This document shows, one piece after another, positions 5,847 through 58,745 of a DNA stretch of 64,000 nucleotides (position 1 is its first letter; each line of letters begins with the position of its first letter). The stretch is from Escherichia phage FL20. Position numbers and translations under genes: made by a program. The stretch lies in the sequence record PP400781. One strand, 5' to 3'. The notes beneath the pieces were generated by a model that saw nothing but the letters and a program-made list of their open reading frames with translations, was not told the origin of the DNA and ran no database searches.

Positions 5847-6008
5847 CTATTTTAAATTATTTTCGACCTTCACCCATTCCGCGTATTCTTGCGCGGCTAC
5901 TTTCGGATTTAGTCCGTCTTCGTACATTGCATCAAGTAATTCTTTGTCGGTGGGCTTATACCCTAGATAAGCCTCCACCTGATTTTTCCAAATTTTATAC
6001 CAGTTCAT
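5847..6008 (-). CDS. Hypothetical small protein (53 aa)
   Basis: Internal ATG at 6006-6008 just after the stop of the upstream ORF. Confidence 0.35.
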   Translation of the reverse strand: MNWYKIWKNQVEAYLGYKPTDKELLDAMYEDGLNPKVAAQEYAEWVKVENNLK

Positions 6009-6012
6009 ATTA

Positions 6013-6216
6013 TCACCAGTCAAGAGCGCGTGTCTCTGCGTCTTCCCATGCTTGGTCCATAACAGCCTTGAAAACATATTCTAAAGTATCATCTTTAGAG
6101 AATCCGAAGACCTTAGACGGGATATCTTCAATTGCTACTCCAGCAACTTCTGCATTACGCGCTTGGCAATAATGCAACTCTAAGTTATCGAGATAGCGAC
6201 CGCCTAATTTCTCCAT
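6013..6216 (-). CDS. Hypothetical small protein
   Basis: 67-aa ORF; promoter TTGACT-17-CATAAT at about 6318-6344 upstream. Confidence 0.4.
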   Translation of the reverse strand: MEKLGGRYLDNLELHYCQARNAEVAGVAIEDIPSKVFGFSKDDTLEYVFKAVMDQAWEDAETRALDW

Positions 6217-6356
6217 ATCATCCCAGCATTCCAGTAACCTACTTTATTTGCAATTGCTAACACTTTGCTGTTTTCGTTGCACATCTTTGATTCTCCTTTT
6301 GTTTGGTGTGTGTGTATTATGCAATGTTGGATTCTGTAAGTCAACAACTTTTTAAA

Positions 6357-6384
6357 ATAAAAAAGCCGACCACACGGATCGGCT
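6357..6384 (-). terminator. Rho-independent terminator
   Basis: Minus strand: agccgatccgtgtggtcggct hairpin followed by tttttatttt. Confidence 0.6.
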
Positions 6385-6394
6385 TAATAATCAG

Positions 6395-6790
6395 TTACTT
6401 ACTAAATTTCTTTTTGGCTTCGTCTACCGCATGAGATGCCAGTACCGCAGCCGCATGTGCACTTTTATCTGTGTTGCAGAGAACGCCCAGATAAACATCA
6501 CGCCAAAGTTTAATCATCTCGTAGATCATATCAATATCATTTTCTTGTTTGTTGGCGATGCTATTCGTCGTTATCTGGTAAGGTAACGGCTTGATCTGTA
6601 CTGGTTCCGCCATCGGGCTAATCGGTTTCGGATCAGTCATAATAGGTGCTGTTGTGGGTGGTGTTTTCCATACACCATTATTCCACGGTTTAATCGTTGT
6701 GTCGTAAAGTTTATAAGGATTTTTGTCTGGGTCAACCATCCATGCATGATGAGTACCCAAACCATTTGAAGTGATGCGTCGTTCAGTCAT
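6395..6790 (-). CDS. Hypothetical protein
   Basis: 131-aa ORF; Pro/Thr-rich middle. Confidence 0.45.
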   Translation of the reverse strand: MTERRITSNGLGTHHAWMVDPDKNPYKLYDTTIKPWNNGVWKTPPTTAPIMTDPKPISPMAEPVQIKPLPYQITTNSIANKQENDIDMIYEMIKLWRDVYLGVLCNTDKSAHAAAVLASHAVDEAKKKFSK

Positions 6791-6793
6791 AAT

Positions 6794-6997
6794 TTATTTC
6801 CTCTCTGAAAATTCTTTCATCAAGCTGTCGATCTTTGCTCTGTGTTCTGGTGTGTTTGTCATCTCTGCTAATTTGCTCAGAGATTCACTGGTGATCCGGT
6901 TGGATTCTTCCAGTGTTTCAACGACAATTGGCACAATCTTTTTATTGTTGTACAGAAATGCAATATAACCGCCTTCTGGATATTCTTTCATAATCAA
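6794..6997 (-). CDS. Hypothetical small protein
   Basis: 67-aa ORF; start overlaps the gp52 stop. Confidence 0.4.
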   Translation of the reverse strand: MIMKEYPEGGYIAFLYNNKKIVPIVVETLEESNRITSESLSKLAEMTNTPEHRAKIDSLMKEFSERK

Positions 6998-8340
6998 CCC
7001 TTCTTAAGTTCTTTAAGATCTTTCTTATATTCCTTCATTGCGGTCGTCTTTGTCCAATACTCATATTCACTATGATGTTTATCGGCATCTTTGACCAGTC
7101 GATCATACTCTTCTTGAGTAACGCTATACAATGGCATAGAAACTAGCTTATCGGCGTATGGACGCAGTTTTTCATGTCCATTGATGGATTGCATTACCTC
7201 GGCCTTTTTCTTTCCCTGTAGCTCGATTTCGCCCTTAATTACGCGATCGATAAATTCGGCTTTAGCCATTGCATAATTGTATGCTTCCAGCGTTTCCGCT
7301 TGCATCAATTCAATGCGTTTATCGACATACACTAATCGGATTTCGACGAATCGACGGATCAGATCGCTCGCTTTCTCGAATACTTCTACTAAACCACGTT
7401 CATTAACCACTACGATATTCTGGGCTACTAACTGCGTTAGTTTAAAATCCTTCATGATTTGCTCATGTCGAGCGGATTCATCTTCGCTTTTGAAATAATC
7501 GCGTTTCAGTGTTACTTCAAATCTGAATCCATCCTTAGAGCAACGGTCATTATATGAGACAATCAGATCTTTTTCTTCCAGTGCATCCAGTACCGCTACA
7601 TATTCTTCACGGTCGAACTTATAAGGAACTTCTGATATTGTCAGTTTAGTCTTGCCGTTTAGTTCATATGTACCCTCAAGAATCACACCATCGCGATCAT
7701 CTCGCGGGATAACTTTACCCGTGAATTTCGGGAATTGAACATTAGGTTCTTTATCCAGTTTTCCGGCAAGTGCTAGCTCTGTGCATTCAATGAGGCTTTC
7801 CAGTGAATGCGGTAAAATGTCAGTTTTATACCCTGAAGCAATACCACTAATACCATTAGCCAATACCATTGGCACAACTGGCAAGTAGAACGCTGGCGGG
7901 ATGTGTTCCAGATCTTCGTGCTTAGGTGCGCAATTCATATCTTTATAGATTTTAAAGAAGTTTTCATGCACACGAGCAAAGATATAACGTGCCGCTCCTG
8001 CTTTCTGGACTAAACGAGATCCGAAGTTACCTTGACCGTCAAGCAGTGGAGTATTATTGCTCCATGTATTCGCCATGAGTGATCCGGCTTCTACGGCATT
8101 AGTTTCGCCGTGGTGATACCCCAATTCAGCAACACCAGATCCAATATCTGCCATCTTACGGAATTTCTTACGGTCGCCTTTACTCTTTTGCAAAGCACAT
8201 TCCATAACAAAGCGTTGCACTGGTTTAAGCCCATCCACTAATTGAGGAATCCCGCGTTCCTCGGCAGAATAGATCGCATATTCCTTAGCTTCATTATGTA
8301 CAATGCTTTCAAGGCTGCGGTAAGTAACTGATTTATTCAT
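6994..8340 (-). CDS. 52: DNA topoisomerase II medium subunit gp52 (GyrA-like)
   Basis: GLKPVQRF, DGQGNFGS, ARYIFAR, YLPVVP motifs collinear with T4 gp52; ATG at 8338-8340 with GAGGTGA RBS (track start 8355 is GTG). Confidence 0.9.
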   Translation of the reverse strand: MNKSVTYRSLESIVHNEAKEYAIYSAEERGIPQLVDGLKPVQRFVMECALQKSKGDRKKFRKMADIGSGVAELGYHHGETNAVEAGSLMANTWSNNTPLLDGQGNFGSRLVQKAGAARYIFARVHENFFKIYKDMNCAPKHEDLEHIPPAFYLPVVPMVLANGISGIASGYKTDILPHSLESLIECTELALAGKLDKEPNVQFPKFTGKVIPRDDRDGVILEGTYELNGKTKLTISEVPYKFDREEYVAVLDALEEKDLIVSYNDRCSKDGFRFEVTLKRDYFKSEDESARHEQIMKDFKLTQLVAQNIVVVNERGLVEVFEKASDLIRRFVEIRLVYVDKRIELMQAETLEAYNYAMAKAEFIDRVIKGEIELQGKKKAEVMQSINGHEKLRPYADKLVSMPLYSVTQEEYDRLVKDADKHHSEYEYWTKTTAMKEYKKDLKELKKG

Positions 8341-8347
8341 CTTCACC

Positions 8348-8710
8348 TCATACACGCTTACAAATCACATTCTTTACTTTATCAGATTTATCAGCCCAAT
8401 CCAATAGCCATTTTAACGGAAGGATTGACACAATAAACGGGGCAGCAATCAAAGCAAACATGATACACCTGATAATCAGGAAAACGCAAGTGACAAAACT
8501 AGCGATAGTGATCCCGACAAAACAAAATACCATAGAAAACAGAGTAATGATATAGAAAGGCCAGAATACCCACTCCCGCATCTTAACGCCTTTGTATTCT
8601 CTGAATTGCTTAAAATCTACAAACAACTCTCGGATAGACGCGTACAGGACCGAAAAATCATCTTTCATTGCTCTGAATGAGCAATCTTCTATTTTAGAAT
8701 GACCTAGCAT
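8348..8710 (-). CDS. Hypothetical membrane protein
   Basis: 120-aa ORF with two or three hydrophobic helices (WVFWPFYIITLFSMVFCFVGITIASFV...). Confidence 0.45.
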   Translation of the reverse strand: MLGHSKIEDCSFRAMKDDFSVLYASIRELFVDFKQFREYKGVKMREWVFWPFYIITLFSMVFCFVGITIASFVTCVFLIIRCIMFALIAAPFIVSILPLKWLLDWADKSDKVKNVICKRV

Positions 8711-8712
8711 TA

Positions 8713-9006
8713 TTAACCGCCTTTAACCATTGATACAGGAATTGTTTTCTGATTTGTGTATAAGTGGCCTACTTCAATTTTTTCTTGAATCACCACGACG
8801 TTACAATATCCACTGTCTTTAAGTTTTCTGATAATGACTCGCTTTTGTTCGTCGGTGATAGGATTGACTGTTCTCACCAATTCACCGCAAATAATAGCAC
8901 CATCTTTACAATTACCAGTAACTTTCATGCTACGACCGTGAACAACAACCACGTCACCGTAAATCACATTTTCGTCGTCGTATTTGGTAATAACCGTGAC
9001 CGTCAT
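8713..9006 (-). CDS. Hypothetical protein
   Basis: 97-aa ORF. Confidence 0.4.
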   Translation of the reverse strand: MTVTVITKYDDENVIYGDVVVVHGRSMKVTGNCKDGAIICGELVRTVNPITDEQKRVIIRKLKDSGYCNVVVIQEKIEVGHLYTNQKTIPVSMVKGG

Positions 9007-9051
9007 AATGTATTCCCTCTAAGAAAGGCCGCGCAAAGCGGCCTATGTTGA

Positions 9052-9384
9052 TTATTGTTCTACAGTATAACCGTTGTTTTCAAGCCATGCAATAACAATC
9101 TTTTCGCCAATTTCATCGAGCATTTCATCAGCGCCATATTCTTTAATGAAAGTCGATGGATCATTATTGCTTACTACGTGCTGGATCACAACATGTTCAG
9201 GAATTGCGTCTAGTAGTTCGCTATGATCATACTCATTAACGATATCTTCAACACTAACATTATTAACCAAATCAACATCATCCATAGTCACAGTAACGCG
9301 ACCGGACGGACGCAATGAATATTGGCTACTTTCAACTTCAACATGTGCACTTTCGCAAGTAACTTTCATATCAACCATAATCAA
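9052..9384 (-). CDS. Hypothetical acidic protein
   Basis: 110 aa, strongly Asp/Glu-rich. Confidence 0.45.
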   Translation of the reverse strand: MIMVDMKVTCESAHVEVESSQYSLRPSGRVTVTMDDVDLVNNVSVEDIVNEYDHSELLDAIPEHVVIQHVVSNNDPSTFIKEYGADEMLDEIGEKIVIAWLENNGYTVEQ

Positions 9385-9392
9385 TTCCTCTG

Positions 9393-10385
9393 TTAGTAAT
9401 GGCTAAAACCTTCGGTCACATCTTCAACCACATAGTAACGATGACAGCGCATTTTGGCATTTGCATAATCTTTCGGGATACTTACAACGTGACGCGGATC
9501 AACTTTGCATTTAATGATTCGGCCTCGTCCACCGCCATAGTGCGGAATATAGTGTTTCGCTGCAACGTGGAGGCCATTAGAGCAAGTGCGATCATCATCT
9601 GGGTCCACGTCTTTACGCTTCATTTTAACCGTGCGACCTGGGCTATTATCAAACGTATGCGTAAAGAAATCTTTATAATCAACATCAACACGTTTCCATG
9701 CATAGAAACAACCATCTTCCACGATCTCAATGTCGTTGTGCTCTAAGAAGTCAAATAGACGATCTACGGCCTTACGGCTAGGGTTTTTCTTGCACTTCTC
9801 AAAGAAGTTAAGATAGTGCGTATATGGCTTATTCTCTTTAATCGACTCCACAACTCGACGAGTCAGATTATTATCAAGAACAATATTATGATAATACACA
9901 ATACCATTTTCGATACGGAAAGCGCCGTGATAATATACTTCAACCGCTTTCTTAATGTCAATCAGCGTAATAGCTTTGATGAAATCATTATGTTTAATCG
10001 CTTCCAGTGCTTCCTTAAAGTTAACATGTGATGGATCAGCAGTATAAACAATGTCACCACATGTAATAGTAATAAACTTAGTTGAGGCTATGGCTACGAT
10101 TTTTGAGGAAGTAGTTACGGGCTTTTTTGCGCGTTCACCGCCTTTTCCTTTACTGGTTTTACGGCGTGCTTTACGTTTTTCTAGTGCCTTGCGACCTTCC
10201 GCTACTGCGTCTTTCTGAATCAGTAATACACGGGAGGCAGTGCGACGAGATACACCAAATGCTGCCGCAAGTGCTTCGCGGGTAGTAAACTTACCTTCGC
10301 CCCACTGTTTAGCCAGTTTGATTTGTTTCGCAGAATCCAGACATTGAACGTTACGGTCAGAGACGGTGATTTTTGCTTTAGTCAT
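9393..10385 (-). CDS. rIIB: rIIB membrane-associated lysis-inhibition protein
   Basis: Collinear with T4 rIIB (SRLFDFL, DGYFYAWK, TFDNSPG, CSRGLHV, VKVHPRDVVSIP, YEVVEDVTE equivalents); ATG at 10383-10385 preferred because the first ATG abuts the RBS. Confidence 0.85.
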   Translation of the reverse strand: MTKAKITVSDRNVQCLDSAKQIKLAKQWGEGKFTTREALAAAFGVSRRTASRVLLIQKDAVAEGRKALEKRKARRKTSKGKGGERAKKPVTTSSKIVAIASTKFITITCGDIVYTADPSHVNFKEALEAIKHNDFIKAITLIDIKKAVEVYYHGAFRIENGIVYYHNIVLDNNLTRRVVESIKENKPYTHYLNFFEKCKKNPSRKAVDRLFDFLEHNDIEIVEDGCFYAWKRVDVDYKDFFTHTFDNSPGRTVKMKRKDVDPDDDRTCSNGLHVAAKHYIPHYGGGRGRIIKCKVDPRHVVSIPKDYANAKMRCHRYYVVEDVTEGFSHY

Positions 10386-10447
10386 AGTATTCATTCCTCT
10401 ATTAGTTGGGCGACTATTGCCGCCCGATTCACATCATTATACCAGAA

Positions 10448-10579
10448 TTATTTTGCTTCGACAACCTTGCGGATTGTGCGGTCTGATACATTATAGATTC
10501 GTGCCAGTTCGCCTTTAGTCAAACCGCGAGCGTATTGTTTACGGATGGTTTCTTTCTGGATGGCGGTCAGTTTAGTCAT
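10448..10579 (-). CDS. Small HTH peptide (43 aa) between rIIA and rIIB
   Basis: Not in the ORF track (under 60 aa). GAGGTGA RBS; translation MTKLTAIQKETIRKQYARGLTKGELARIYNVSDRTIRKVVEAK is a helix-turn-helix resembling the N-terminus of rIIB. Confidence 0.5.
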   Translation of the reverse strand: MTKLTAIQKETIRKQYARGLTKGELARIYNVSDRTIRKVVEAK

Positions 10580-10590
10580 AATATCACCTC

Positions 10591-12705
10591 TTAAAATTTA
10601 ACATTCTTAACCAGTTTCATAAAGTCTTGTGCGCGTTTGTCATTATGCAGAATACGATACCAGTTATCGACAATATCATACAGTAACGGGCTATTCTCTT
10701 TAAACTTCGCACAAACTGCTTTAATTCGTTCGTTTGCTACCGTGAATTTTTCATCACTAATCTTTTTAGTTTCTTCGTCCATAATCCAACGAGTACGAAG
10801 GAGTAACTTGGAAACCTCTTTATTATAATGACGACCGTACAGTCTGTCAATAAATTCTGGAACACAGCGTTCTAGTTCATCGTCATGAAACAACATAGTG
10901 ATCACACCCAGATATTCGCCATACCCCAGATGATTGGTCTTAACCTTCTTAGCCAGACCAGCCAGCTTACCGCGAACAAATTCTAGCGCACATTCCAATT
11001 GTTCGTCAACGAGATATTTTTGTGTCTCGTTTCGAGTAATAATATACTTTGTTACCCCGAAGTAGTCAAGCGCCGTGTGTAATGTATTTTCACTATGGAT
11101 CGATTTACGACTACGGCTTTCGAATGCATCACCTACGCGGAACATGTGCAAGCCTGATAACTCGCGAATCTCTGCCGCTTTCATGTGATGGCTGGTTTTA
11201 TGCCAACTGTCACCAATCTTTTCCATGATATACACGTTAGGCAGCTTAGGAGTCGCTTCACGTTGTGTACGTGTACGCTCGGTCTTCTCCGGTTTAACTG
11301 CTTTAGCACGCAGATCATCGGCCTCAGAAACTTTAATCACGGTCATTTCAGAATCATCATAATACTGTTTGATGTACTCGAAAGTTTCCATATGTTTTTC
11401 GTTGCGCTGACGGAACACCAGTACCTTTTTATTGATGCCGTATTCCTGGACCATACCGTTAAGAGTCAGTGCGCGTAGTTTCGGTTTATCGGTATCATCA
11501 ATAAGACACATAATATCTTCTTTATGCATCCATACAAAATGCGTAATGTTGTATTGACTGCTAACGAAAGCAGGGCGCAATTTACTGATTGTGTGACGAG
11601 TACGATACAGAGTATACACCTGACCTTCTACGTCATTAGGCGAATCTTTACCCGCATTCACAAACTTATTATAGATTGCTACCGGATCATCCCACTGCCC
11701 GGTCTTACCCATCTTGCTAATAATATTGCGTTGAGTCGATGAATACTCGCTCATAAATTGCGCAAGTTTACGCTCTGTTTTAATGTTGGCGATCTTCTCT
11801 TTGACCTTTTCCAACATCATTTCATTGATTTCTGCAATGCGTTTTTCGATGTTCGCTTTAGTCTCAATTGACAAGTGAACTTCTTCACGCGATGGCATCA
11901 GGTCCAGATCACCCAACTCAAAATTAATGTAAATGGTCTGGTGCTGGCGGTTTACAGCTTCTAACCATGTTCCGCGAACATATTCATACGGGATCGGATA
12001 CTGGATCTTACCCATGATTGCATATACTACATAGGAATCGTTATCACGCCCATTACAAACATAATAATTATCAAAGCTAGGGAAATAATTAATTTCGATT
12101 GCATTGATATTAGGTTTGTGTTCCCCAAAATGACGCAGTACAAATTGCGCTTCTCGATGCCATGTCTGAATATCTTTTTCTTTCACCGGAATAGTGATTT
12201 TCAGACCATTGTCTTCATAGGTCGGTTCGTCGAAAATCTGCACCATTTTCGGCATAGAGTTTTGCACAAATGCCGTAAAGCCATAAGCGCGACCATTGTA
12301 ATAGTTTACGATTGTAAAGGTGTCAGTGTAGCTATAAGCAGATTTCGCACCTAAACCAAAAGACCCGATATAGTCATTAGTCTGGTCTTTTGTTGATTCA
12401 AAGTAAACCGTAAACAGTTGTTCTAATTCTTTCTTAGACGGAATACCAGTACCATAATCACGCACAGAAAAATACGGTTCGATTGCAGTCGGTAAATGAA
12501 TATCAAACGGACGATCTAAGGTTCCGGCTTCTTTGTGAGTGTCGGTAGCATTGCACGAATACTCACGGACGCAAGCACGCTCACAATATTGATAAGTGTT
12601 CTTAGAAAGCACCATAAAAGCCTTGCTACTTGCTTTCAGTGAAAAATCAACCGCACCGCTCAGGTCACTGCCAAATACTTCTTCATTATCAATATGCATT
12701 TTCAT
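10591..12705 (-). CDS. rIIA: rIIA protein (GHKL-ATPase-like)
   Basis: 704 aa; N-terminal ATPase-like motifs (GSFGLGAKSAYSY); size and position as T4 rIIA; ATG with GAGGA RBS. Confidence 0.9.
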   Translation of the reverse strand: MKMHIDNEEVFGSDLSGAVDFSLKASSKAFMVLSKNTYQYCERACVREYSCNATDTHKEAGTLDRPFDIHLPTAIEPYFSVRDYGTGIPSKKELEQLFTVYFESTKDQTNDYIGSFGLGAKSAYSYTDTFTIVNYYNGRAYGFTAFVQNSMPKMVQIFDEPTYEDNGLKITIPVKEKDIQTWHREAQFVLRHFGEHKPNINAIEINYFPSFDNYYVCNGRDNDSYVVYAIMGKIQYPIPYEYVRGTWLEAVNRQHQTIYINFELGDLDLMPSREEVHLSIETKANIEKRIAEINEMMLEKVKEKIANIKTERKLAQFMSEYSSTQRNIISKMGKTGQWDDPVAIYNKFVNAGKDSPNDVEGQVYTLYRTRHTISKLRPAFVSSQYNITHFVWMHKEDIMCLIDDTDKPKLRALTLNGMVQEYGINKKVLVFRQRNEKHMETFEYIKQYYDDSEMTVIKVSEADDLRAKAVKPEKTERTRTQREATPKLPNVYIMEKIGDSWHKTSHHMKAAEIRELSGLHMFRVGDAFESRSRKSIHSENTLHTALDYFGVTKYIITRNETQKYLVDEQLECALEFVRGKLAGLAKKVKTNHLGYGEYLGVITMLFHDDELERCVPEFIDRLYGRHYNKEVSKLLLRTRWIMDEETKKISDEKFTVANERIKAVCAKFKENSPLLYDIVDNWYRILHNDKRAQDFMKLVKNVKF

Positions 12706-16991: not shown

Positions 16992-18383
16992 TCAAATATA
17001 GTCTACTCGATACCGCGCACGGGTAACACCAACATATAATAACTGCATTGCCAATTCAAAGTCAACATTGTCTGTACACATGCAAGGAGTATACAGGAAC
17101 ACGCGGTCTACGCTGATCCCTTGTGACTTATGAATGGTGCAAGCTGGTAATGCTTTTACATTCAAGAACATACGCTTCATCGTCCAGAAGGAATCCCAAT
17201 CTGGTTTAAATTTTGGATTCTCTTTCTTCATTTCGCGATATTGTCCGGCGACCGTATTCAGATAGATAGAGAAAATGTTCTTCTGACGTTGTTCTGTCAG
17301 AATGTTGATTTCTACTAAATCTGGTTTATCTGTAGTGATTCCGACTGCATCTAAACCGACTTTCTGATTTAGGATTTCTTTGTCTTCGTCATCATCGACG
17401 CTTTCCACTTTCAGAGTATAGCCTAAAACTGGTTGCGGATCTACCCCCGTGCAACGTAATGTAAATTCGCGCGGGATGACCTCTTTAACTCGGATCATCT
17501 CACCATTGTTAAAAATAACATTGGGGATCTTCTTCCCGCGTTCATCTCGCAGATATTCGATCAATGGTTCCTGAGTAACCAGAATTTCATCTACAATCAC
17601 TGGTTCATCGGTGTTATAAACGCGCTTACGTACAATTTCATTGAGTTTTTCGACGCTCTTGTTAGTGTAAGCCAGAATACGGTTTTCTAGAAGGTCTTCC
17701 GGCGTTTTAACGGTTTCGAAATAATGCTTCATAAACTCCGGCAGAGTTGAGCTATGGAATACACCCTCGTTACCGCACTGCTTTTCGAATACCCATTTAC
17801 CATTACGGACAGCGGTCGCCACATCAATTATTGGCGCATTAGATCGTTTAATCTCTGTAAGTTCTACATTCTGAAACCTTTCATCGGTGAAGAAAGGAGA
17901 GATCGACGTTGCGCCGCTCGGATCAACTGGTCGTAACTGGTACAGATCACCCACGGCAATAATAACAATTCGACCGTTGATACTCTTCATGAGAATATCA
18001 AATAGTTTCTTATCGACCATACTCGCTTCATCAACAATGATGATCTGAACATCATCTAGCTTAGGAGTATCTTTTTGCTCAAATACTTGAGTATCTTCAT
18101 AGTTGGTCGGGTTTAGTCGCAGTAGTGCATGTAAAGTAAATGCTTGACGACCTACCGCTTTACTCAAAACTTTTTTAGCCTGGTGGGTAGGCGTTGCCAA
18201 AACCACACCAGTTACACCACGGCGGACCATTTCCTGAACAATGAATTTCATCATTGCGGTTTTACCAGTACCCGCCGCACCACGGACAGTTGTATGCTTC
18301 TTTTGTTCAATGCGTTTCATTAGAACATCAAAAGCATGTTTTTGCCCGTCTGTTAACATATCGAAAGTTAATACTCTGCTCAT
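16992..18383 (-). CDS. dda: Dda DNA helicase (SF1B)
   Basis: 463 aa; GAAGTGKT Walker A; SPFFT, ELTEIKRSNAPIIDVATAVRNGKW, ALPACTIHKSQG, LYVGVTRAR collinear with T4 Dda. Confidence 0.9.
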   Translation of the reverse strand: MSRVLTFDMLTDGQKHAFDVLMKRIEQKKHTTVRGAAGTGKTAMMKFIVQEMVRRGVTGVVLATPTHQAKKVLSKAVGRQAFTLHALLRLNPTNYEDTQVFEQKDTPKLDDVQIIIVDEASMVDKKLFDILMKSINGRIVIIAVGDLYQLRPVDPSGATSISPFFTDERFQNVELTEIKRSNAPIIDVATAVRNGKWVFEKQCGNEGVFHSSTLPEFMKHYFETVKTPEDLLENRILAYTNKSVEKLNEIVRKRVYNTDEPVIVDEILVTQEPLIEYLRDERGKKIPNVIFNNGEMIRVKEVIPREFTLRCTGVDPQPVLGYTLKVESVDDDEDKEILNQKVGLDAVGITTDKPDLVEINILTEQRQKNIFSIYLNTVAGQYREMKKENPKFKPDWDSFWTMKRMFLNVKALPACTIHKSQGISVDRVFLYTPCMCTDNVDFELAMQLLYVGVTRARYRVDYI

Positions 18384-37536: not shown

Positions 37537-37626
37537 AGTCTCTTCCTCTCTTCGTTTTCGATGCTCTCACTATATCACAGAAAAATAAAAAGGGAAACCC
37601 CTTTCAGAGTCTCCCTTATAAAGCCA

Positions 37627-37915: not shown

Positions 37916-38149
37916 TTATTTTACCTCTGGGATATAATCAATTATTAAAGAAAATTCATCTTCTGATACATTATAGCTATGTGAGATTGTACCCGTAAAG
38001 ACCTCAAGATCCGGTGATTTGATATTGCACGGATCGATAATCACCGGAACGCCGCAATCTCTCAAAAATAATTTGGCGAAATACGGCACAAGGTCAGTTT
38101 CAAACTCTGCTTCTTCCAGCAAACGGGAAATGTTAATTTTCAATCTCAT
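37916..38149 (-). CDS. Hypothetical small protein
   Basis: 77-aa ORF overlapping the 3' end of 55. Confidence 0.4.
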
Positions 38150-38666
38150 AAAATTGGTCCAAGCTAGGCAATTCCTCGGTCAATACATCTTCAACCTTTG
38201 GCGCTTTCGGTTTATTGACCGATTCCTCGTAGTTGTTGATTTTATCGTAAATGTCCTGTATGAATGCCTCATCAGCAATCTGGCACATATCAGCGTCGCG
38301 TTCGTCATATACATGATGCACAAAATATTTGTATTTTGCGGCTGTCGCTGTTCTCTCTTTTTTAATGCGCTGTACAAAAGCATTAAAGCACGCTTGCGTG
38401 ATGTAAGCATGAGGATTTTTATACTTTGTCTCGTCAAAATTAATCAAACCCTTGACCGCCGCTTCGATTCCGTCGTCGATCATTTCTTCGCGCCATGTTT
38501 GACTATAACCAGAAAAGTTAAAACGACGTGATAGATTTTTAGAGATTTGCATAATTGCTAGGCCGATTTGATCGCTCATTGGAACTTGCCGACCTTCTGC
38601 TGCAATTTGTTGTTTCCAACGGCAAATTTCTTCGTAAAGCTCTTTATTGTTTACATAATCAGACAC
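38133..38666 (-). CDS. 55: Late-transcription sigma factor gp55
   Basis: 177 aa; [23 protein letters not shown], near-identical block [37 protein letters not shown] as in T4 gp55; start appears to be GTG. Confidence 0.85.
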
Positions 38667-38706: not shown

Positions 38707-40176
38707 CTATTCCCCATTGCCATTATACTTTCTTTGCTTAGTTATCCACACTCTAACCATCTCTACAGATTCGCCGTCAGACGGATCAAGAGTTTTTCCT
38801 TTTTTCTTCATGCGGTACTTAAATCCGTTAAATCTTGCATTCTCTTGCTCGTTAAAGTCGAACATCTTTTTAAATGATTTTCGCCCTTTACGCTCACCAC
38901 ATTCTAGCGGAATCATTCGGTCTGTTATTACATTGGCATTAGGTAGAAACGTTTTTAGATAATCCACCAACGCCCAATCAGGAACATATAGATTAACATT
39001 CTCCTTGCTCTCGTTGTCTCTCAGGTTACAACGCAAACATAATTGAAATGCTGGTTCCAGATAATCAGACACATGACGCGCTTTCAAAAACTCGTTTGTC
39101 GGGAGATCACAACTATTAGCAAGACCTTTTAAAATATCAATCTCCCATCGTTGAGGGTTAAAGCTGAACATCACAGCAACATTTTTATGATGAATGTAAG
39201 AGTTAAGACCATAAGATCCGTAAGGTATCCGCTCACCAATACCATTTGTACACGCTTCTCGGTCCCGATTCACGGTATAAATGAAGTCATCGCCACATTC
39301 ATTTTTAACCATATCAACAAGACGTTCAAAGGTATTGTTTGTTTCTGACTGGTGACGCGACCATCGTTCAGAGTCCGTCATAAGGATGATATTAACTCTA
39401 TCTGTATTTTTATACTCTTTGAAATATAGTCTGGATTCTAGCGCACTCGGAACAAAATCGCAATTTGCATAGTATCGTAGATACTTCCCACTATATGTAT
39501 CAAAGAGATTTGCACATGCTATCGTAACCTTTTTAAAGTCTCCCCACGTACCGTGTTTGTTATCGTTCAAGAAAACAATTTTCGACCCATTCTTCCGGTG
39601 TCCTTCGTTATGTTTTACCATAACGTTGATTTTCTTCTCTAATAACGCCTCATAAAGCCCTCTAAGAGAAGAATCGATCATATCAGTACCATCCTTCGCA
39701 CTTTCTATCTTTTCTTTGATAGCGGCCTTCTCAGAGTCTTTTAGAACTAAGTTCTGTAGGCATTCCGATTCGTCGGCGATTGGTTCGCAATGCTTCGTGA
39801 TAAGTTCAAGATTAGACTTAAACGGATACTCATTAAATTCAACCAGTTGAGGAACTTCATCAATGTAAAGAGCATAATCACCAAACATTTTTGAACGTTC
39901 CATATTAGATAACGCTGTATGTGTAATGAATATCACATCAGCACCGTCTTTAACTGATTGCATTATCGACGCTTGCACTGTCTTAAGGCTTCTTAGTCTT
40001 GTGCTATCAATCAAGACAGCACGACCGCCCATTCTTTTAAACTTATTGTAAGATTGTTCACTTAAAACACGAGATGGCGAAGCAATAACCGCTTTTTCTT
40101 TTGTCTCTAGGACGTGGGAAAGTATAGCATCAGTTTTCCCCGCCGCTGGCAATGCGATTAATGTTTCAATCTTCAT
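38707..40176 (-). CDS. SF2-helicase-like P-loop NTPase of unknown function (not in T4 core set)
   Basis: 489 aa; Walker A ALPAAGKT at residues 9-16, motif Ia-like IASPSRVLSEQ, Ib-like VIFITHTAL, Walker B/DExx-like LYIDEVPQL; C-terminal 350 aa without recognised motifs; start overlaps stop of upstream ORF (TAATG). Confidence 0.55.
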   Translation of the reverse strand: MKIETLIALPAAGKTDAILSHVLETKEKAVIASPSRVLSEQSYNKFKRMGGRAVLIDSTRLRSLKTVQASIMQSVKDGADVIFITHTALSNMERSKMFGDYALYIDEVPQLVEFNEYPFKSNLELITKHCEPIADESECLQNLVLKDSEKAAIKEKIESAKDGTDMIDSSLRGLYEALLEKKINVMVKHNEGHRKNGSKIVFLNDNKHGTWGDFKKVTIACANLFDTYSGKYLRYYANCDFVPSALESRLYFKEYKNTDRVNIILMTDSERWSRHQSETNNTFERLVDMVKNECGDDFIYTVNRDREACTNGIGERIPYGSYGLNSYIHHKNVAVMFSFNPQRWEIDILKGLANSCDLPTNEFLKARHVSDYLEPAFQLCLRCNLRDNESKENVNLYVPDWALVDYLKTFLPNANVITDRMIPLECGERKGRKSFKKMFDFNEQENARFNGFKYRMKKKGKTLDPSDGESVEMVRVWITKQRKYNGNGE

Positions 40177-40463
40177 TAGAAACCCTTACGTCGTGCTTTC
40201 TGGCATTTCTTGATCATTTTATCAGAAATTTCGCGCTTAGGTGCAATCTCTTTCACACCGAAAGCACTAATGCCAAATTCAGAGAGAATATATTCAACCA
40301 ACAATTCACGCACACGCGCTTTACCGATATTCACGCCGTTATTTTTCAGATATGTCTGGCCTTCGACTTGCATCAGATCTAAATCCGCGTCGGTAATATT
40401 GATTTCTTCCATGCGCCCAAATCGAGAATAAACCATGTGTGCGATTGCATTGTGTACTAACAT
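40176..40463 (-). CDS. Hypothetical protein coupled to the P-loop gene
   Basis: About 95 aa from ATG at roughly 40461-40463 with GAGGAA RBS; stop overlaps downstream start. Confidence 0.4.
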   Translation of the reverse strand: MLVHNAIAHMVYSRFGRMEEINITDADLDLMQVEGQTYLKNNGVNIGKARVRELLVEYILSEFGISAFGVKEIAPKREISDKMIKKCQKARRKGF

Positions 40464-40486
40464 AATATATTCCTCACTCAAGAATT

Positions 40487-40643
40487 ACTTAATGATACTT
40501 ACTTTACCAGATCCGTGACAATGAGCGCAACACCCATCACCACGCAATCCTGTTCCGTTACAGTGTTTACACTTCTTCAACGGTAAAGCCATTATAGCAA
40601 ATAAAGCAATAATGAACACCGAAACTAAATTCTCAATAATCAT
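40487..40643 (-). CDS. Micro-protein with TM helix and DnaJ-type double CxxCxGxG zinc finger (52 aa)
   Basis: Not in the ORF track. Translation MIIENLVSVFIIALFAIMALPLKKCKHCNGTGLRGDGCCAHCHGSGKVSIIK read from the minus strand. Confidence 0.4.
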
Positions 40644-40902
40644 AAATCGCCCTCAGTTCTTTATAGCCTCCAATGTGCTCGTTGTCAATGAATATCTGGG
40701 GGTATACAAACCGGAGGCTCTTTGAGTTTAGCCTCCCCGCCAGTTCTTCAATCATATCACGGTCGGGAATAATGTCAACCCCGACCTGCTTGAATACTGG
40801 TTTAAGTGTATACGGAATACCCAGATCATCCAGTAGCTTCATTGCACTAATACAACCATAACAATGATAAGCCTCTTTCGGTATACCGTATATCTCGATC
40901 AT
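40633..40902 (-). CDS. nrdH: Glutaredoxin-like protein (NrdH-like)
   Basis: 89 aa; CYGC redox motif near N-terminus and YPQIFIDNEHIGGYKEL glutaredoxin signature; located next to nrdG as T4 nrdH. Confidence 0.55.
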   Translation of the reverse strand: MIEIYGIPKEAYHCYGCISAMKLLDDLGIPYTLKPVFKQVGVDIIPDRDMIEELAGRLNSKSLRFVYPQIFIDNEHIGGYKELRAIYDY

Positions 40903-41399
40903 TTCTCAGCCTTTAATCTTTCTAGTTCTTCTTCCAGTTCCTTGATCCGTTGGTCACGTTCAAAGTCACGCTGTAACTTAGTGGCGAATACTCGTTTAAA
41001 CTGATTGTAATCATCGATTTTAAACACTTCTTCTTCGCCATAGCGACGCACAGAAACTTCGTAGTTATTGAAGAATTGTTGCATCATTGCTTCGGATGAT
41101 AGCTCTGCTGATACCACTTTAAAATATTGATCTTCTGTAGGCGAAAACCAATTACAAGCATAAAGATAAACCTTTTCATTGTCTGGACACTGGTAAGCCT
41201 TACCATCGATTTCAATCACAGAAACATACTCAGGTATACTAGATGAATCAATAGCTAAGACTTTAAACGCACGGTCCCCGATAAACTCGGAGATCACACG
41301 ATTCGCATCACTGGTTGCAAATGCTTTACGCGCTTGTTCGTTTTTCCACTGATAGGTCATACCAACAACAAACATATTACCAACCTCGCTCTTTACCAA
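40899..41399 (-). CDS. WEVGK-module family protein (1 module plus coiled-coil tail)
   Basis: 166 aa; GMTYQWKNEQARKAF ... FKVLAIDS ... IEIDGKAY module and C-terminal RIKELEEELERLKAEK; paralog of seven neighbouring genes. Confidence 0.5.
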   Translation of the reverse strand: MVKSEVGNMFVVGMTYQWKNEQARKAFATSDANRVISEFIGDRAFKVLAIDSSSIPEYVSVIEIDGKAYQCPDNEKVYLYACNWFSPTEDQYFKVVSAELSSEAMMQQFFNNYEVSVRRYGEEEVFKIDDYNQFKRVFATKLQRDFERDQRIKELEEELERLKAEK

Positions 41400-42201
41400 T
41401 CAAAAATTCAACTTCACGACGTTTAATGTCTTCTTGAAGGTCTTTAATCTTCTGGCGATCTTGCATGATTTCATCCATCTTGTCAAGTGCCGCAATGAAA
41501 TCATCGAAACGTTCAAAGGTTTTACCTTCATTTGCTTCGCCAAATTTAACCATTGTCAGGCCGTAACGACTACTAAACAGACGTTTCAACTGTCCAACGA
41601 TCTTAGAATCAGTGGTTATAACTTCCAATTCTTCTACTTCACGAAAGAATTTTCTATCAGAATCAATAAACCAGCTAGTTCCTTTATGGTCTCTATCTTC
41701 GGTTGCGCTCATTAGAGTATGGTCTTTACCATCAATTTCAATTACATCAATTTGCCCACATGGACGAACATTTTTAACAGTAAAAGGTCTATAATTTATT
41801 GCTCGTGCAATAACATAATTAAGGTTAGATACGTTTTCAGCATAATGGCAGAAGTCGGTCATAGCATTCACATCTTTCCAAGTATAAGTTTTACCAACTT
41901 CCCATTTCTGGGGAACTTCTTCAACTTCACGAAAGAATTTTCTATCAAATGGACTAAAGAAATATGTTGCAGTCCAAATGTCTTTTCCTGTAGCAGTTTT
42001 CGCCGTATGATAAACACCGTCTAGCTCTATTGCATTAATCCAACCGTTACCCTCGATCTCGATGATGGTAAATGGCTTGTCACCAATAGCTGCACTAATA
42101 TCGCTGTTAAGTGGAGAAAGAACACCTTCTCCGTTAGTAATAAACTCAGTTTTAGCGTTTTCATCTTTCCAGGTGTAAGTTTTACCAATTTCCCATTTCA
42201 T
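41377..42201 (-). CDS. WEVGK-module family protein (2 tandem modules plus tail)
   Basis: 274 aa; module 1 starts MKWEIGKTYTWKDENAKTEF, module 2 starts QKWEVGKTYTWKDVNAMTDF; each ends with DRKFFREVEE. Confidence 0.55.
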   Translation of the reverse strand: MKWEIGKTYTWKDENAKTEFITNGEGVLSPLNSDISAAIGDKPFTIIEIEGNGWINAIELDGVYHTAKTATGKDIWTATYFFSPFDRKFFREVEEVPQKWEVGKTYTWKDVNAMTDFCHYAENVSNLNYVIARAINYRPFTVKNVRPCGQIDVIEIDGKDHTLMSATEDRDHKGTSWFIDSDRKFFREVEELEVITTDSKIVGQLKRLFSSRYGLTMVKFGEANEGKTFERFDDFIAALDKMDEIMQDRQKIKDLQEDIKRREVEFLIGKERGW

Positions 42202-42213
42202 AATATATTCCCC

Positions 42214-42714
42214 TTAACCGATTTTATCAAGTTCGTTTAATGCTTTCTCTGCTTCCTGTATAGCTTGCACTCTTTCCGGCATTTTGTCAAGAAAATCTTT
42301 CAACTCTTCAAAACTGGAGATATGACGCAAGGCATTAGCACCGATAGCCGCATGTGATTTGCATTCAAAGCGAATTTTATAATTATCCATCGCCAATTTG
42401 AGAAGGTCTATTAGATCATATTCATGACCAGGCAATAAAACTTCTTTGAAGCACGCTCGGTCGCCATCGGAAAACCATATATTATCACCAACATCGATAG
42501 AACTAATATAATCCCCTTCGTGATTATAGATTGAACGTACATTACCCCAACGGTCTACCGTAGCGACAGTAAATGGTTTATCTAGATATGTAAACACACC
42601 ATCAATATTAGGTTTTTGTTCGTAACGCCAACAATCACGCAAAATGCGCTTTTCGTCCTCACCAACCAACTTATATGTCTTCCCTTCTTCCCATTTCATA
42701 ATATCATCTCTCAT
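42214..42714 (-). CDS. WEVGK-module family protein (1 module plus tail)
   Basis: 166 aa; MKWEEGKTYKL ... DGDRACFKEV; helical tail. Confidence 0.5.
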   Translation of the reverse strand: MRDDIMKWEEGKTYKLVGEDEKRILRDCWRYEQKPNIDGVFTYLDKPFTVATVDRWGNVRSIYNHEGDYISSIDVGDNIWFSDGDRACFKEVLLPGHEYDLIDLLKLAMDNYKIRFECKSHAAIGANALRHISSFEELKDFLDKMPERVQAIQEAEKALNELDKIG

Positions 42715-43240
42715 TTTTGATACGTGATTCTAATTGGATCATACGGTCGCGCGTTTGCTTGTATTCGCGGATAGCACCGATCCGGCTAGGCATACCATCC
42801 AGTACGCTCTTAATACCTTCTATGGTAGTAATTTTGGCAATGCTATTATGTAACCCCATCTTATCGATCAACTGAATGTCGTAGGCTTCCATAAGCAGAC
42901 CCAGACGTTCTAAAGTTAGGTCTTCTTCTTTTTCTTCCGATTCTGGAATCTTAGGTTCAATAGTAACTTCGGTAAAGAAACGACGCTCACCCGACCAAAA
43001 CCACACACCGGAACAGCCAATAGGGGATTCTTTTAACGTCATAGAGTCGAAATTACTACCAATAATAGTAATTTCTCTAACATCACCATCATCGTCAAGG
43101 TCTTCTACCCTAAACGGGCGACCAGCCAACAAGTCAACAATACATCTGTTAATAGACGACGAAAATTTAGTCAGTTCGGCTTTCGACGCTTCGCATTCAA
43201 TCTTGTAAGTTTTACCAACTTCCCATTCCATAATAATCAC
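42704..43240 (-). CDS. WEVGK-module family protein (1 module plus tail)
   Basis: 178 aa; MEWEVGKTYKI ... SGERRFFTEV; helical tail. Confidence 0.5.
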   Translation of the reverse strand: MIIMEWEVGKTYKIECEASKAELTKFSSSINRCIVDLLAGRPFRVEDLDDDGDVREITIIGSNFDSMTLKESPIGCSGVWFWSGERRFFTEVTIEPKIPESEEKEEDLTLERLGLLMEAYDIQLIDKMGLHNSIAKITTIEGIKSVLDGMPSRIGAIREYKQTRDRMIQLESRIKNER

Positions 43241-58677: not shown

Positions 58678-58745
58678 AAGTCATTCCCCCAGATTAAAAA
58701 TATTCAGTTATATTTATAATCTGGGGCTTTATTTATGATTAACTC

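What the first reader, a model, noticed from the sequence alone, without database searches (positions are those of the whole stretch)
38707..40463. 489-aa SF2-helicase-like P-loop protein with a translationally coupled partner, inserted between nrdH and gene 55
T4 has only small 55.x ORFs here. This ORF has an N-terminal RecA-like domain 1 (Walker A ALPAAGKT, motif Ia-like IASPSRVLSEQ, Ib-like VIFITHTAL, DExx-like LYIDEVPQL) but no recognisable helicase domain 2; the C-terminal ~350 aa is unassigned. Its start overlaps the stop of an upstream ~95-aa ORF (TAATG), suggesting a two-gene unit. It is not alpha-glucosyltransferase, which would be expected near here in T4. It could be a nucleic-acid-modifying or defence-related ATPase.
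Basis: partly seen in the sequence, partly recalled or inferred. Interest (0 to 1): 0.7.

Follow-up and report, generated by a model that had tools for sequence, protein, structure and literature searches.

The report
Extra XPD/DinG-like helicase in RB49-type phages
The 489-residue gene is a complete but very divergent two-domain DNA helicase, kept at the same spot in about 240 T4-like phage genomes and related to helicases that other phages and mobile elements fuse to a primase; it is a real but fairly ordinary uncharacterised accessory helicase, not a new kind of system.

Summary
The ORF, its motifs and the TAATG overlap are real. They lie on the minus strand: helicase 38707-40176, upstream ORF 40176-40463. 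The window is a Krischvirus (RB49-like; 100% identical to phage kvi).

- **Active-site residues are conserved.** K14, D106/E107, G323/N325 and a motif VI Q378/R382/R386 are invariant across 140 distant relatives.
- **No iron-sulfur domain** is present.
- **The "partner" is the T4 gp55.2 homologue** (Pfam DUF7570, 42% identity to T4 55.2). It occurs in 1092 phage records against 243 for the helicase. In other genera it is separated from the helicase by 2-5 ORFs, so the two are not an obligate pair.
- **Nothing supports a defence role.** PADLOC gave only one sub-threshold hit.

About half of the distant relatives examined carry a C-terminal AEP primase-polymerase-like domain. That places the family in DNA replication. 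RB49-type phages already have gp41, gp61 and Dda, so the likeliest role is an accessory 5'-3' replication/recombination DNA helicase. This is inferred, not shown. Interest is moderate to low.

The parts
38707..40176 (-). 489-aa SF2 helicase gene (orthologue of RB49p044 / RB49ORF044c); the stop codon is 38707-38709
40132..40155 (-). Motif I / Walker A, ALPAAGKT (residues 8-15)
   Evidence: Read from the sequence. G13, K14 and T15 are invariant in 41 orthologues. K14 is invariant in 140 remote relatives.
39844..39870 (-). Motif II / Walker B, LYIDEVPQL (residues 103-111; D106 E107)
   Evidence: D106 and E107 are invariant in alignments A1 and A2.
39562..39843 (-). Insertion of ~95 aa in RecA1 between motifs II and III (residues ~112-205), made of beta-strands and three helices. 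It sits where XPD/DinG carry the Arch domain.
38917..39531 (-). RecA-like domain 2 (residues ~216-420) with motif III CAN (221-223), WSR (272-274), YGLN (322-325), motif VI FQLCLRCNLR (377-386; nucleotides 39019-39048) and VPD (398-400)
38710..38889 (-). Basic alpha-helical C-terminal tail (residues 430-489, pI 10.1), a candidate nucleic-acid- or partner-binding element
   Evidence: Helices 435-438, 443-458 and 468-486. pI computed. E445 and W477 are invariant among orthologues. The function is inferred.
40176..40463 (-). 95-aa upstream gene, homologue of T4 gp55.2 (Pfam DUF7570). Its TAA stop overlaps the helicase ATG by one base.
   Evidence: DUF7570 E 1.1e-28. 41.7% identity to T4/T2 55.2 over 98% of its length. 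T4 gp55.2 is a topoisomerase I inhibitor (PMC4396842). It is a neighbour, not shown to be a functional partner.
40751..40778 (-). Sigma-70-like promoter candidate (TTGACA, 16-nt spacer, TATGAT, with TG) inside nrdH, pointing towards the 52-aa ORF, 55.2, the helicase and gene 55
   Evidence: Consensus scan, 11 of 12 positions. It is a pattern match only. No TATAAATA late-promoter box lies near the gene.

Best explanation
The gene encodes an active ATP-driven SF2 nucleic-acid translocase/helicase. Its architecture is closest to the XPD/Rad3/DinG group: two RecA-like domains, an Arch-position insertion in domain 1, no iron-sulfur domain, and a short basic C-terminal tail. It belongs to a large helicase family specific to viruses and mobile elements. 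Many of that family's other members are fused to an AEP primase-polymerase and presumably act as helicase-primase replication proteins. The T4-like phage version has no primase domain. It sits in the early/middle replication-recombination gene block immediately upstream of gene 55. The phage already has gp41, gp61 and Dda, so the helicase most likely acts as an additional, accessory DNA helicase. It would load on single-stranded DNA, move 5'->3', and clear or remodel replication or recombination intermediates such as forks, D-loops or R-loops. **Shown:** the fold, the conserved catalytic motifs, the conserved synteny, and the primase fusion in relatives. **Inferred:** DNA rather than RNA as substrate, the polarity, and the physiological role.
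For: - **Catalytic residues.** K14, D106/E107, G323/N325 and Q378/R382/R386 are invariant in 140 relatives of ~20% identity.
- **Family size.** 1330 representative proteins at E<=1e-3.
- **Synteny.** The position directly upstream of gene 55 is conserved in Krischvirus, Roskildevirus, Muldoonvirus, Nanhuvirus, Tulanevirus and Ishigurovirus. The gene is present in all 58 Krischvirus records matched.
- **Other replication genes.** A Dda homologue is in the window at 16992-18383. RB49 has genes 41, 61, 43 and uvsX.
- **Literature.** Kazlauskas et al. [quoted passage not shown] CasDinG is a precedent for an XPD-family 5'-3' helicase without an FeS cluster (PMC10450177).
Against: - There is no sequence-level link to XPD/DinG. 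Pfam DEAD_2 and Helicase_C_2 are not matched at E<=1. Profile searches of PDB sequences hit only generic SF2 domain 1: DEAD-box, reverse gyrase, XPB, PriA, Mfd.
- Residue-level structural alignments were not available, so the Arch equivalence rests on insertion position and aligned length.
- No biochemical or genetic data exist for any member.
- The nearest non-T4-like relatives are short, primase-less forms in bacterial integrative islands. The primase link therefore applies to more distant members (~22% identity).
- T-even phages do well without the gene, so the role is accessory at most.
Confidence: 0.55

Rival explanations
1. Replication-initiator helicase. It would be a domesticated replicase helicase from a mobile element that recognises and opens an origin, like herpesvirus UL9 or plasmid and mobile-element Rep helicases. 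It would give RB49-type phages an initiation route that T4 lacks.
For: Relatives are fused to AEP primase plus PriCT, the hallmark of mobile-element replicases. Short-form relatives lie in small bacterial islands between an integrase and a resolvase, or next to integrases. One relative weakly hits Pfam Herpes_ori_bp. The basic C-terminal tail could bind DNA.
Against: No iterons or clear origin-like repeats were found next to the island copies. No origin has been mapped near the gene. The T4-like replisome is complete without it. There is no recognisable sequence-specific DNA-binding domain.
Confidence: 0.15
2. Counter-defence or host-takeover ATPase. The helicase would strip or remodel host proteins or nucleic-acid-based immune complexes, or would itself exclude competing elements, rather than serving phage DNA metabolism.
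Against: There are no significant PADLOC hits. The gene is conserved at one syntenic site across distant genera at 35-42% identity with every catalytic motif intact. Rapidly turning-over anti-defence genes do not look like this. Family relatives are fused to primases, not to nucleases or sensors.
Confidence: 0.12
3. Functional two-gene module with gp55.2. The topoisomerase I inhibitor and the helicase would act together, for example the helicase removing R-loops that build up once Topo I is inhibited.
For: The stop and start codons overlap in RB49. The two genes are directly adjacent in RB16, Aeromonas phage 65 and Cronobacter LPCS28. A 55.2 homologue lies upstream within ~1.5 kb in the six loci where it was found by similarity search, and is annotated as adjacent in the seventh, phage 65. 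DinG-family helicases, including CasDinG, unwind RNA/DNA hybrids (PMC10450177).
Against: 55.2 occurs in 1092 phage records, including T4 and T2, that lack the helicase. In Cronus, PS2 and Aeromonas phage 25, 2-5 other ORFs intervene, and the helicase start then overlaps a different upstream ORF. The gene order nrdH-55.2-X-55 is simply the ancestral T4-type order.
Confidence: 0.08
4. RNA helicase of the DEAD-box type, acting on phage or host transcripts.
For: The only Pfam family above threshold is DEAD. The best sequence-profile hits in the PDB are DEAD-box proteins.
Against: Those hits cover only motifs I-II. The DEAD-box signature motifs are absent: there is no Q motif, motif II is DEVP rather than DEAD, motif III is CAN rather than SAT, and motif VI is QLCLRCNLR rather than HRIGRTGR. 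Whole-protein structural similarity favours XPD/DinG DNA helicases. Relatives are fused to DNA primases.
Confidence: 0.05

Closest known systems
XPD/Rad3/DinG-family SF2 DNA helicases, especially the FeS-less members (type IV CRISPR CasDinG, Finegoldia magna DinG)
   Different: Much smaller (489 aa against 550-740). It lacks even a vestigial FeS domain, since there is no Cys and no extra length between motifs Ia and II. Pfam DEAD_2 and Helicase_C_2 are not matched. Identity is 9-16%. Polarity and substrate are untested.
Virus/plasmid-specific putative helicase family noted by Kazlauskas et al. 2018 (pVOG1685/pVOG9714; PMC5862659)
   Same: [quoted passage not shown] Here a family containing T4-like phage proteins is likewise linked to AEP/PriCT fusions. 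One relative has a faint YonV_C (SPbeta) Pfam hit.
   Different: Identity with pVOG1685 could not be checked; the supplements held contain no matching names. In the relatives found here the helicase is N-terminal and the primase C-terminal, whereas that paper describes C-terminal helicase domains.
T4 accessory helicases Dda (SF1B, 5'-3') and UvsW (SF2, 3'-5')
   Different: Not orthologous to either. Dda is present as well, at window 16992-18383 with 46% identity to T4 Dda. So this is an additional helicase, not a replacement.
T4 gp55.2, an inhibitor of E. coli topoisomerase I (for the upstream 95-aa ORF)
   Same: Pfam DUF7570 at E 1e-28. 41.7% identity over 98% of its length. Same position relative to nrdH and gene 55.
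   Different: In T4 it is followed by 55.1, not by a helicase. Activity of the RB49-type protein is untested.

Membership tests
Superfamily 2 helicases | Walker A (motif I) GxGKT and Walker B (motif II) DExx | tested here: met
   AAGKT at residues 11-15 and DEVP at 106-109. K14, D106 and E107 are invariant in alignments A1 and A2. Pfam DEAD scores 27.3 bits against a cut-off of 26.
Superfamily 2 helicases | Two tandem RecA-like domains with a motif VI arginine finger in domain 2 | tested here: met
   The AF2 model (pLDDT 88) aligns to full two-domain helicases over 240-369 residues. Q378, R382 and R386 are invariant in 140 relatives.
XPD/Rad3/DinG family | 4Fe-4S cluster domain (four Cys) inserted in RecA1 between motifs Ia and II | tested here: not met
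   There is no Cys between residues 42 and 103; the cysteines are at 130, 139, 221, 239, 294, 309, 356, 380, 383 and 426. Only C130 and C380 are invariant among orthologues. The Ia-II spacing of ~65 aa leaves no room for the domain. Some accepted members (CasDinG) also lack a functional cluster.
XPD/Rad3/DinG family | Arch domain inserted in RecA1 between motifs II and III | tested here: inconclusive
XPD/Rad3/DinG family | Sequence signature (Pfam DEAD_2 PF06733 / Helicase_C_2 PF13307) | tested here: not met
   Neither was reported at E<=1 for the protein, nor among 58 relatives at E<=0.01. PDB profile searches give only generic SF2 domain-1 hits.
XPD/Rad3/DinG family | 5'->3' translocation on single-stranded DNA | not testable with these tools
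   Requires polarity assays with 5'- and 3'-tailed substrates.
DEAD-box RNA helicases | Q motif, D-E-A-D, S-A-T and HRxGRxGR motifs | tested here: not met
   Motif II is DEVP, motif III is CAN and motif VI is QLCLRCNLR. There is no upstream Q motif, because the protein starts 7 residues before Walker A.
Helicase-primase (SF2 helicase + AEP PrimPol + PriCT) replication proteins of phages and mobile elements | AEP primase-polymerase domain in the same polypeptide | tested here: not met
   The protein ends at residue 489 with only a 60-aa basic tail. An HMM of the relatives' AEP extension finds nothing in the six-frame translation of the window or of RB49 1-50 kb. The helicase module itself is homologous to theirs.
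Known anti-phage defence proteins (PADLOC) | Significant match to a defence-system protein model | tested here: not met
   The only hit is E 0.0089, 13.6 bits, to an unrelated DRT accessory model over 60 residues.
T4 gp55.2 / DUF7570 (upstream ORF) | Pfam DUF7570 above threshold and homology to T4 55.2 at the syntenic position | tested here: met
   99.5 bits against a cut-off of 27. 41.7% identity to T4 55.2, E 1e-16 in local tblastn. Same gene order as T4. Topo I inhibition was not tested.

The most novel reading that the evidence does not exclude
The helicase is a domesticated replicase helicase from a mobile element. It would give RB49-type, RB43-type and Aeromonas T4-like phages a replication-initiation or fork-restart route that classical T4 lacks. 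It might work with the adjacent Topo I inhibitor gp55.2, for example in R-loop or supercoil-driven origin opening. If so, the textbook T4 replication scheme would be incomplete for a large part of the Straboviridae.
Probability: 0.12. Interest if true: 0.6.

Novelty: new member of a known kind. Interest (0 to 1): 0.35.

Why it matters
T4 is the reference system for phage DNA replication and recombination, and its helicases (gp41, Dda, UvsW) are textbook enzymes. A further conserved helicase in Krischvirus, Pseudotevenvirus and the Aeromonas, Cronobacter, Proteus and Serratia T4-like phages has never been characterised. These results assign the 'hypothetical protein' in about 240 genomes a fold, catalytic residues and a plausible pathway. 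They flag a likely annotation error ('DNA primase'). They also link the protein to a large, unstudied family of helicase-primases in mobile elements. The value lies in better annotation and a clear experimental target, not in a new biological principle.

Tried and rejected
- **PDB by sequence.** Searches with the protein alone and with the orthologue profile found nothing useful. The broad-family profile found only generic SF2 domain 1.
- **NCBIfam and PADLOC.** No meaningful hits.
- **AlphaFold-database fold search.** The library was not available.
- **Substitute for alpha-glucosyltransferase or a DNA-modification enzyme.** Rejected. The fold is a helicase, and Erwinia phage Cronus has both a-gt and this gene.
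- **Replacement for Dda.** Rejected. Dda is in the window, and RB49 also has genes 41, 61 and uvsX.
- **Split helicase-primase, with a separate AEP primase gene nearby.** Rejected for the window and RB49 1-50 kb. The rest of the genome was not scanned.
- **Origin-like iterons beside the bacterial-island copies.** Nothing convincing.
- **Remnant or pseudogene in T4's 55-55.2 region.** None.
- **Late gene.** No TATAAATA box nearby.
- **Literature on this protein.** Searches by accession, PHROG id, RB49 plus helicase, YonV, and Straboviridae plus DinG found only the 2006 listing of RB49ORF044c with a weak DEAD hit (PMC1524935) and the 2018 family-level remark (PMC5862659).

Full report
**What is there.** The window is a Krischvirus (RB49-like T4-related phage). 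The 3-kb region around the finding is 100% identical to Escherichia phage kvi and 99.3% identical to RB49. The finding's ORF lies on the minus strand at 38707..40176 and encodes 489 aa. The upstream ORF (40176..40463, 95 aa) ends ...TTCTAATG, so its stop codon shares one base with the helicase start codon. Gene 55 (38133..38666) follows the helicase. A 52-aa ORF and nrdH (40633..40902) precede the 95-aa ORF. In T4 the same interval holds only 55.1 to 55.6, and T4's syntenic DNA has no trace of the helicase.

**It is a complete helicase, not half of one.** An alignment of 41 orthologues (32-74% identity to the window protein) gave an AlphaFold2 model with mean pLDDT 88.3 and pTM 0.76.
- Every other SF2 helicase (Snf2, HsdR, SecA, DEAD-box, Mfd, UvsW) scores 14.5 or less, mostly with 260 or fewer residues aligned.
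- An exhaustive profile search found 1330 representative relatives.
- Across 140 of them, at about 20% identity, the invariant residues are K14 (Walker A), D106/E107 (Walker B), G323/N325 (an HGLN motif) and Q378/R382/R386 (a classical motif VI). A222 (motif III, G-A-N), S273 and D400 are nearly invariant.

The protein therefore has RecA domain 2 and the full catalytic apparatus. Selection has preserved it as an NTPase.

About 115 residues separate motif II from motif III, which is where XPD/DinG carry the Arch domain. This probably explains the extra aligned length. The Ia-II interval is short and has no cysteine, so there is no iron-sulfur domain. The last 60 residues form a basic helical tail with pI 10.1.

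At the sequence level only generic SF2 domain 1 is recognisable. Pfam DEAD scores 27.3 bits against a cut-off of 26, and the PDB profile hits are DEAD-box, reverse gyrase, XPB, PriA and Mfd. Pfam DEAD_2 and Helicase_C_2 are not matched. I therefore describe it as XPD/DinG-like in architecture and do not file it as a member of that family.

**The 'partner'.** The upstream ORF is Pfam DUF7570 (E 1e-28) and is 41.7% identical to T4/T2 gp55.2 over 98% of its length. T4 gp55.2 is an inhibitor of E. coli topoisomerase I (PMC4396842).
- It is found in 1092 phage records against 243 for the helicase. These include all the T-even phages that lack the helicase.
- Among seven genera examined, 55.2 is directly adjacent in RB49, RB16, Aeromonas phage 65 and Cronobacter LPCS28. 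It is separated by five ORFs in Erwinia Cronus, three in Serratia PS2 and two in Aeromonas phage 25, one of them DprA-like.
- In each case the helicase start overlaps the end of whichever ORF is upstream.

The overlap is thus normal T4-type operon packing on the ancestral order nrdH-55.2-X-55. It is not evidence for a dedicated two-gene unit.

**Context and distribution.**
- The gene sits directly upstream of gene 55 in every genus examined except the rearranged RB16. It is present in all 58 Krischvirus records matched. It is 35-42% identical in Aeromonas, Cronobacter, Enterobacter, Citrobacter, Klebsiella, Serratia, Proteus, Morganella and Erwinia T4-like phages.
- It lies in the leftward early/middle block with genes 46, 47, 55 and nrdH/G/D. 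There is no late-promoter box nearby, and a strong sigma-70-like promoter candidate lies just upstream inside nrdH.
- It does not replace a-gt, because Cronus has both.
- It does not replace Dda, which is present at 16992-18383 with 46% identity to T4 Dda. RB49 also has genes 41, 61, 43 and uvsX.

It is an extra helicase.

**What the wider family says.**
- Among the top 140 representatives, 74 are below 650 aa (almost all 450-550 aa) and, like this one, lack the C-terminal extension. The other 66 are 650 aa or longer, mostly 750-850 aa.
- The C-terminal extension of the long forms (median ~340 aa in the 24 extracted) has the conserved motifs WLDxDGGD, NSxS...NRYRVxIP, HGxDxSK and FYLPC.
- Three of 58 long forms hit PriCT_1 or PriCT_2.

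Those relatives are helicase-primase fusions found in phage-like contigs. Short forms also occur in small bacterial islands next to integrases and resolvases. This ties the family to DNA replication of viruses and mobile elements. A primase-coupled helicase is expected to travel 5'->3' on the lagging-strand template, which agrees with the XPD/DinG resemblance; this last step is inference.

Kazlauskas et al. [quoted passage not shown] Nolan et al. 2006 listed RB49ORF044c with a weak DEAD hit (PMC1524935). One recent genome annotates the orthologue as 'DNA primase'. This is probably annotation transfer from fused relatives, because the T4-like proteins have no AEP domain and none is encoded in the window or in RB49 1-50 kb.

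**Most likely mechanism.** I commit to an ATP-driven accessory DNA helicase of the replication/recombination apparatus, moving 5'->3' on ssDNA and remodelling forks, D-loops or R-loops (confidence 0.55). The rivals are:
- an origin-opening initiator inherited from a mobile-element replicase (0.15);
- a counter-defence or host-takeover motor (0.12);
- a true functional pair with gp55.2 (0.08);
- an RNA helicase (0.05).

No defence-family similarity was found. Nothing was found in the literature on any member's activity.

**Verdict.** The feature is real and under clear purifying selection. It is a new, uncharacterised member of a known kind, useful for annotation and a reasonable experimental target. 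It is not a new type of system. Interest is 0.35.

Noticed in passing
window 40899..43240 (minus strand): Four tandem paralogous ORFs lie between nrdH and nrdG: 40899-41399, 41377-42201 (itself an internal duplication), 42214-42714 and 42704-43240. Pairwise identity is 26-33%, E 1e-5 to 1e-15. All are 'hypothetical' in RB49. This is a locally expanded gene family of unknown function.
   Followed up: partly
window 40485..40643 (minus strand): A 52-aa ORF with an N-terminal hydrophobic helix followed by two DnaJ-type CxxCxGxG zinc-finger repeats (CKHCNGTG...CAHCHGSG). It gives weak DnaJ central-domain hits and matches phrog_3931 (unknown function). It looks like a membrane-anchored mini zinc-finger protein.
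   Followed up: partly
window 40751..40778 (minus strand), inside nrdH: A near-consensus sigma-70 promoter (TTGACA, 16-nt spacer, TG-TATGAT; 11 of 12 positions) points at the 52-aa ORF, 55.2, the helicase and gene 55. It is a candidate internal early promoter and is not annotated in RB49.
   Followed up: no
window 37537..37626; RB49 locus L001 2983-3537: RB49 carries an HNH/AP2 homing-endonuclease gene between gene 47 and a-gt.4. The window phage and phage W115 lack it and have only a 90-nt spacer there. This is a presence/absence polymorphism of a mobile endonuclease within the genus.
   Followed up: no
Locus L017 2501-3928 (Klebsiella phage phi1_146010): The orthologue of this helicase is annotated 'DNA primase'. 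This is probably mis-transferred from primase-fused relatives, since the T4-like proteins have no primase domain.
   Followed up: partly
Loci L007 (Neptuniibacter sp.) 5867-11274 and L014 872-11285: Short-form relatives of the helicase sit in small bacterial islands with the same layout: a DUF6538-type integrase, the helicase, about 1 kb without a called gene, then a serine resolvase. This may be an uncharacterised integrative element family. No clear iterons were found in the gap.
   Followed up: partly
Locus L004 3429-4004 (Aeromonas phage 25): In the Aeromonas 25/44RR group, a DprA-like recombination-mediator gene lies immediately upstream of the helicase, overlapping its start. This is a possible hint of a recombination role.
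   Followed up: no
whole window: There is only one TATAAATA late-promoter box in 64 kb (at 58711, minus strand), against 5.7 expected by chance. This is consistent with the window being almost entirely early/middle genes.
   Followed up: no
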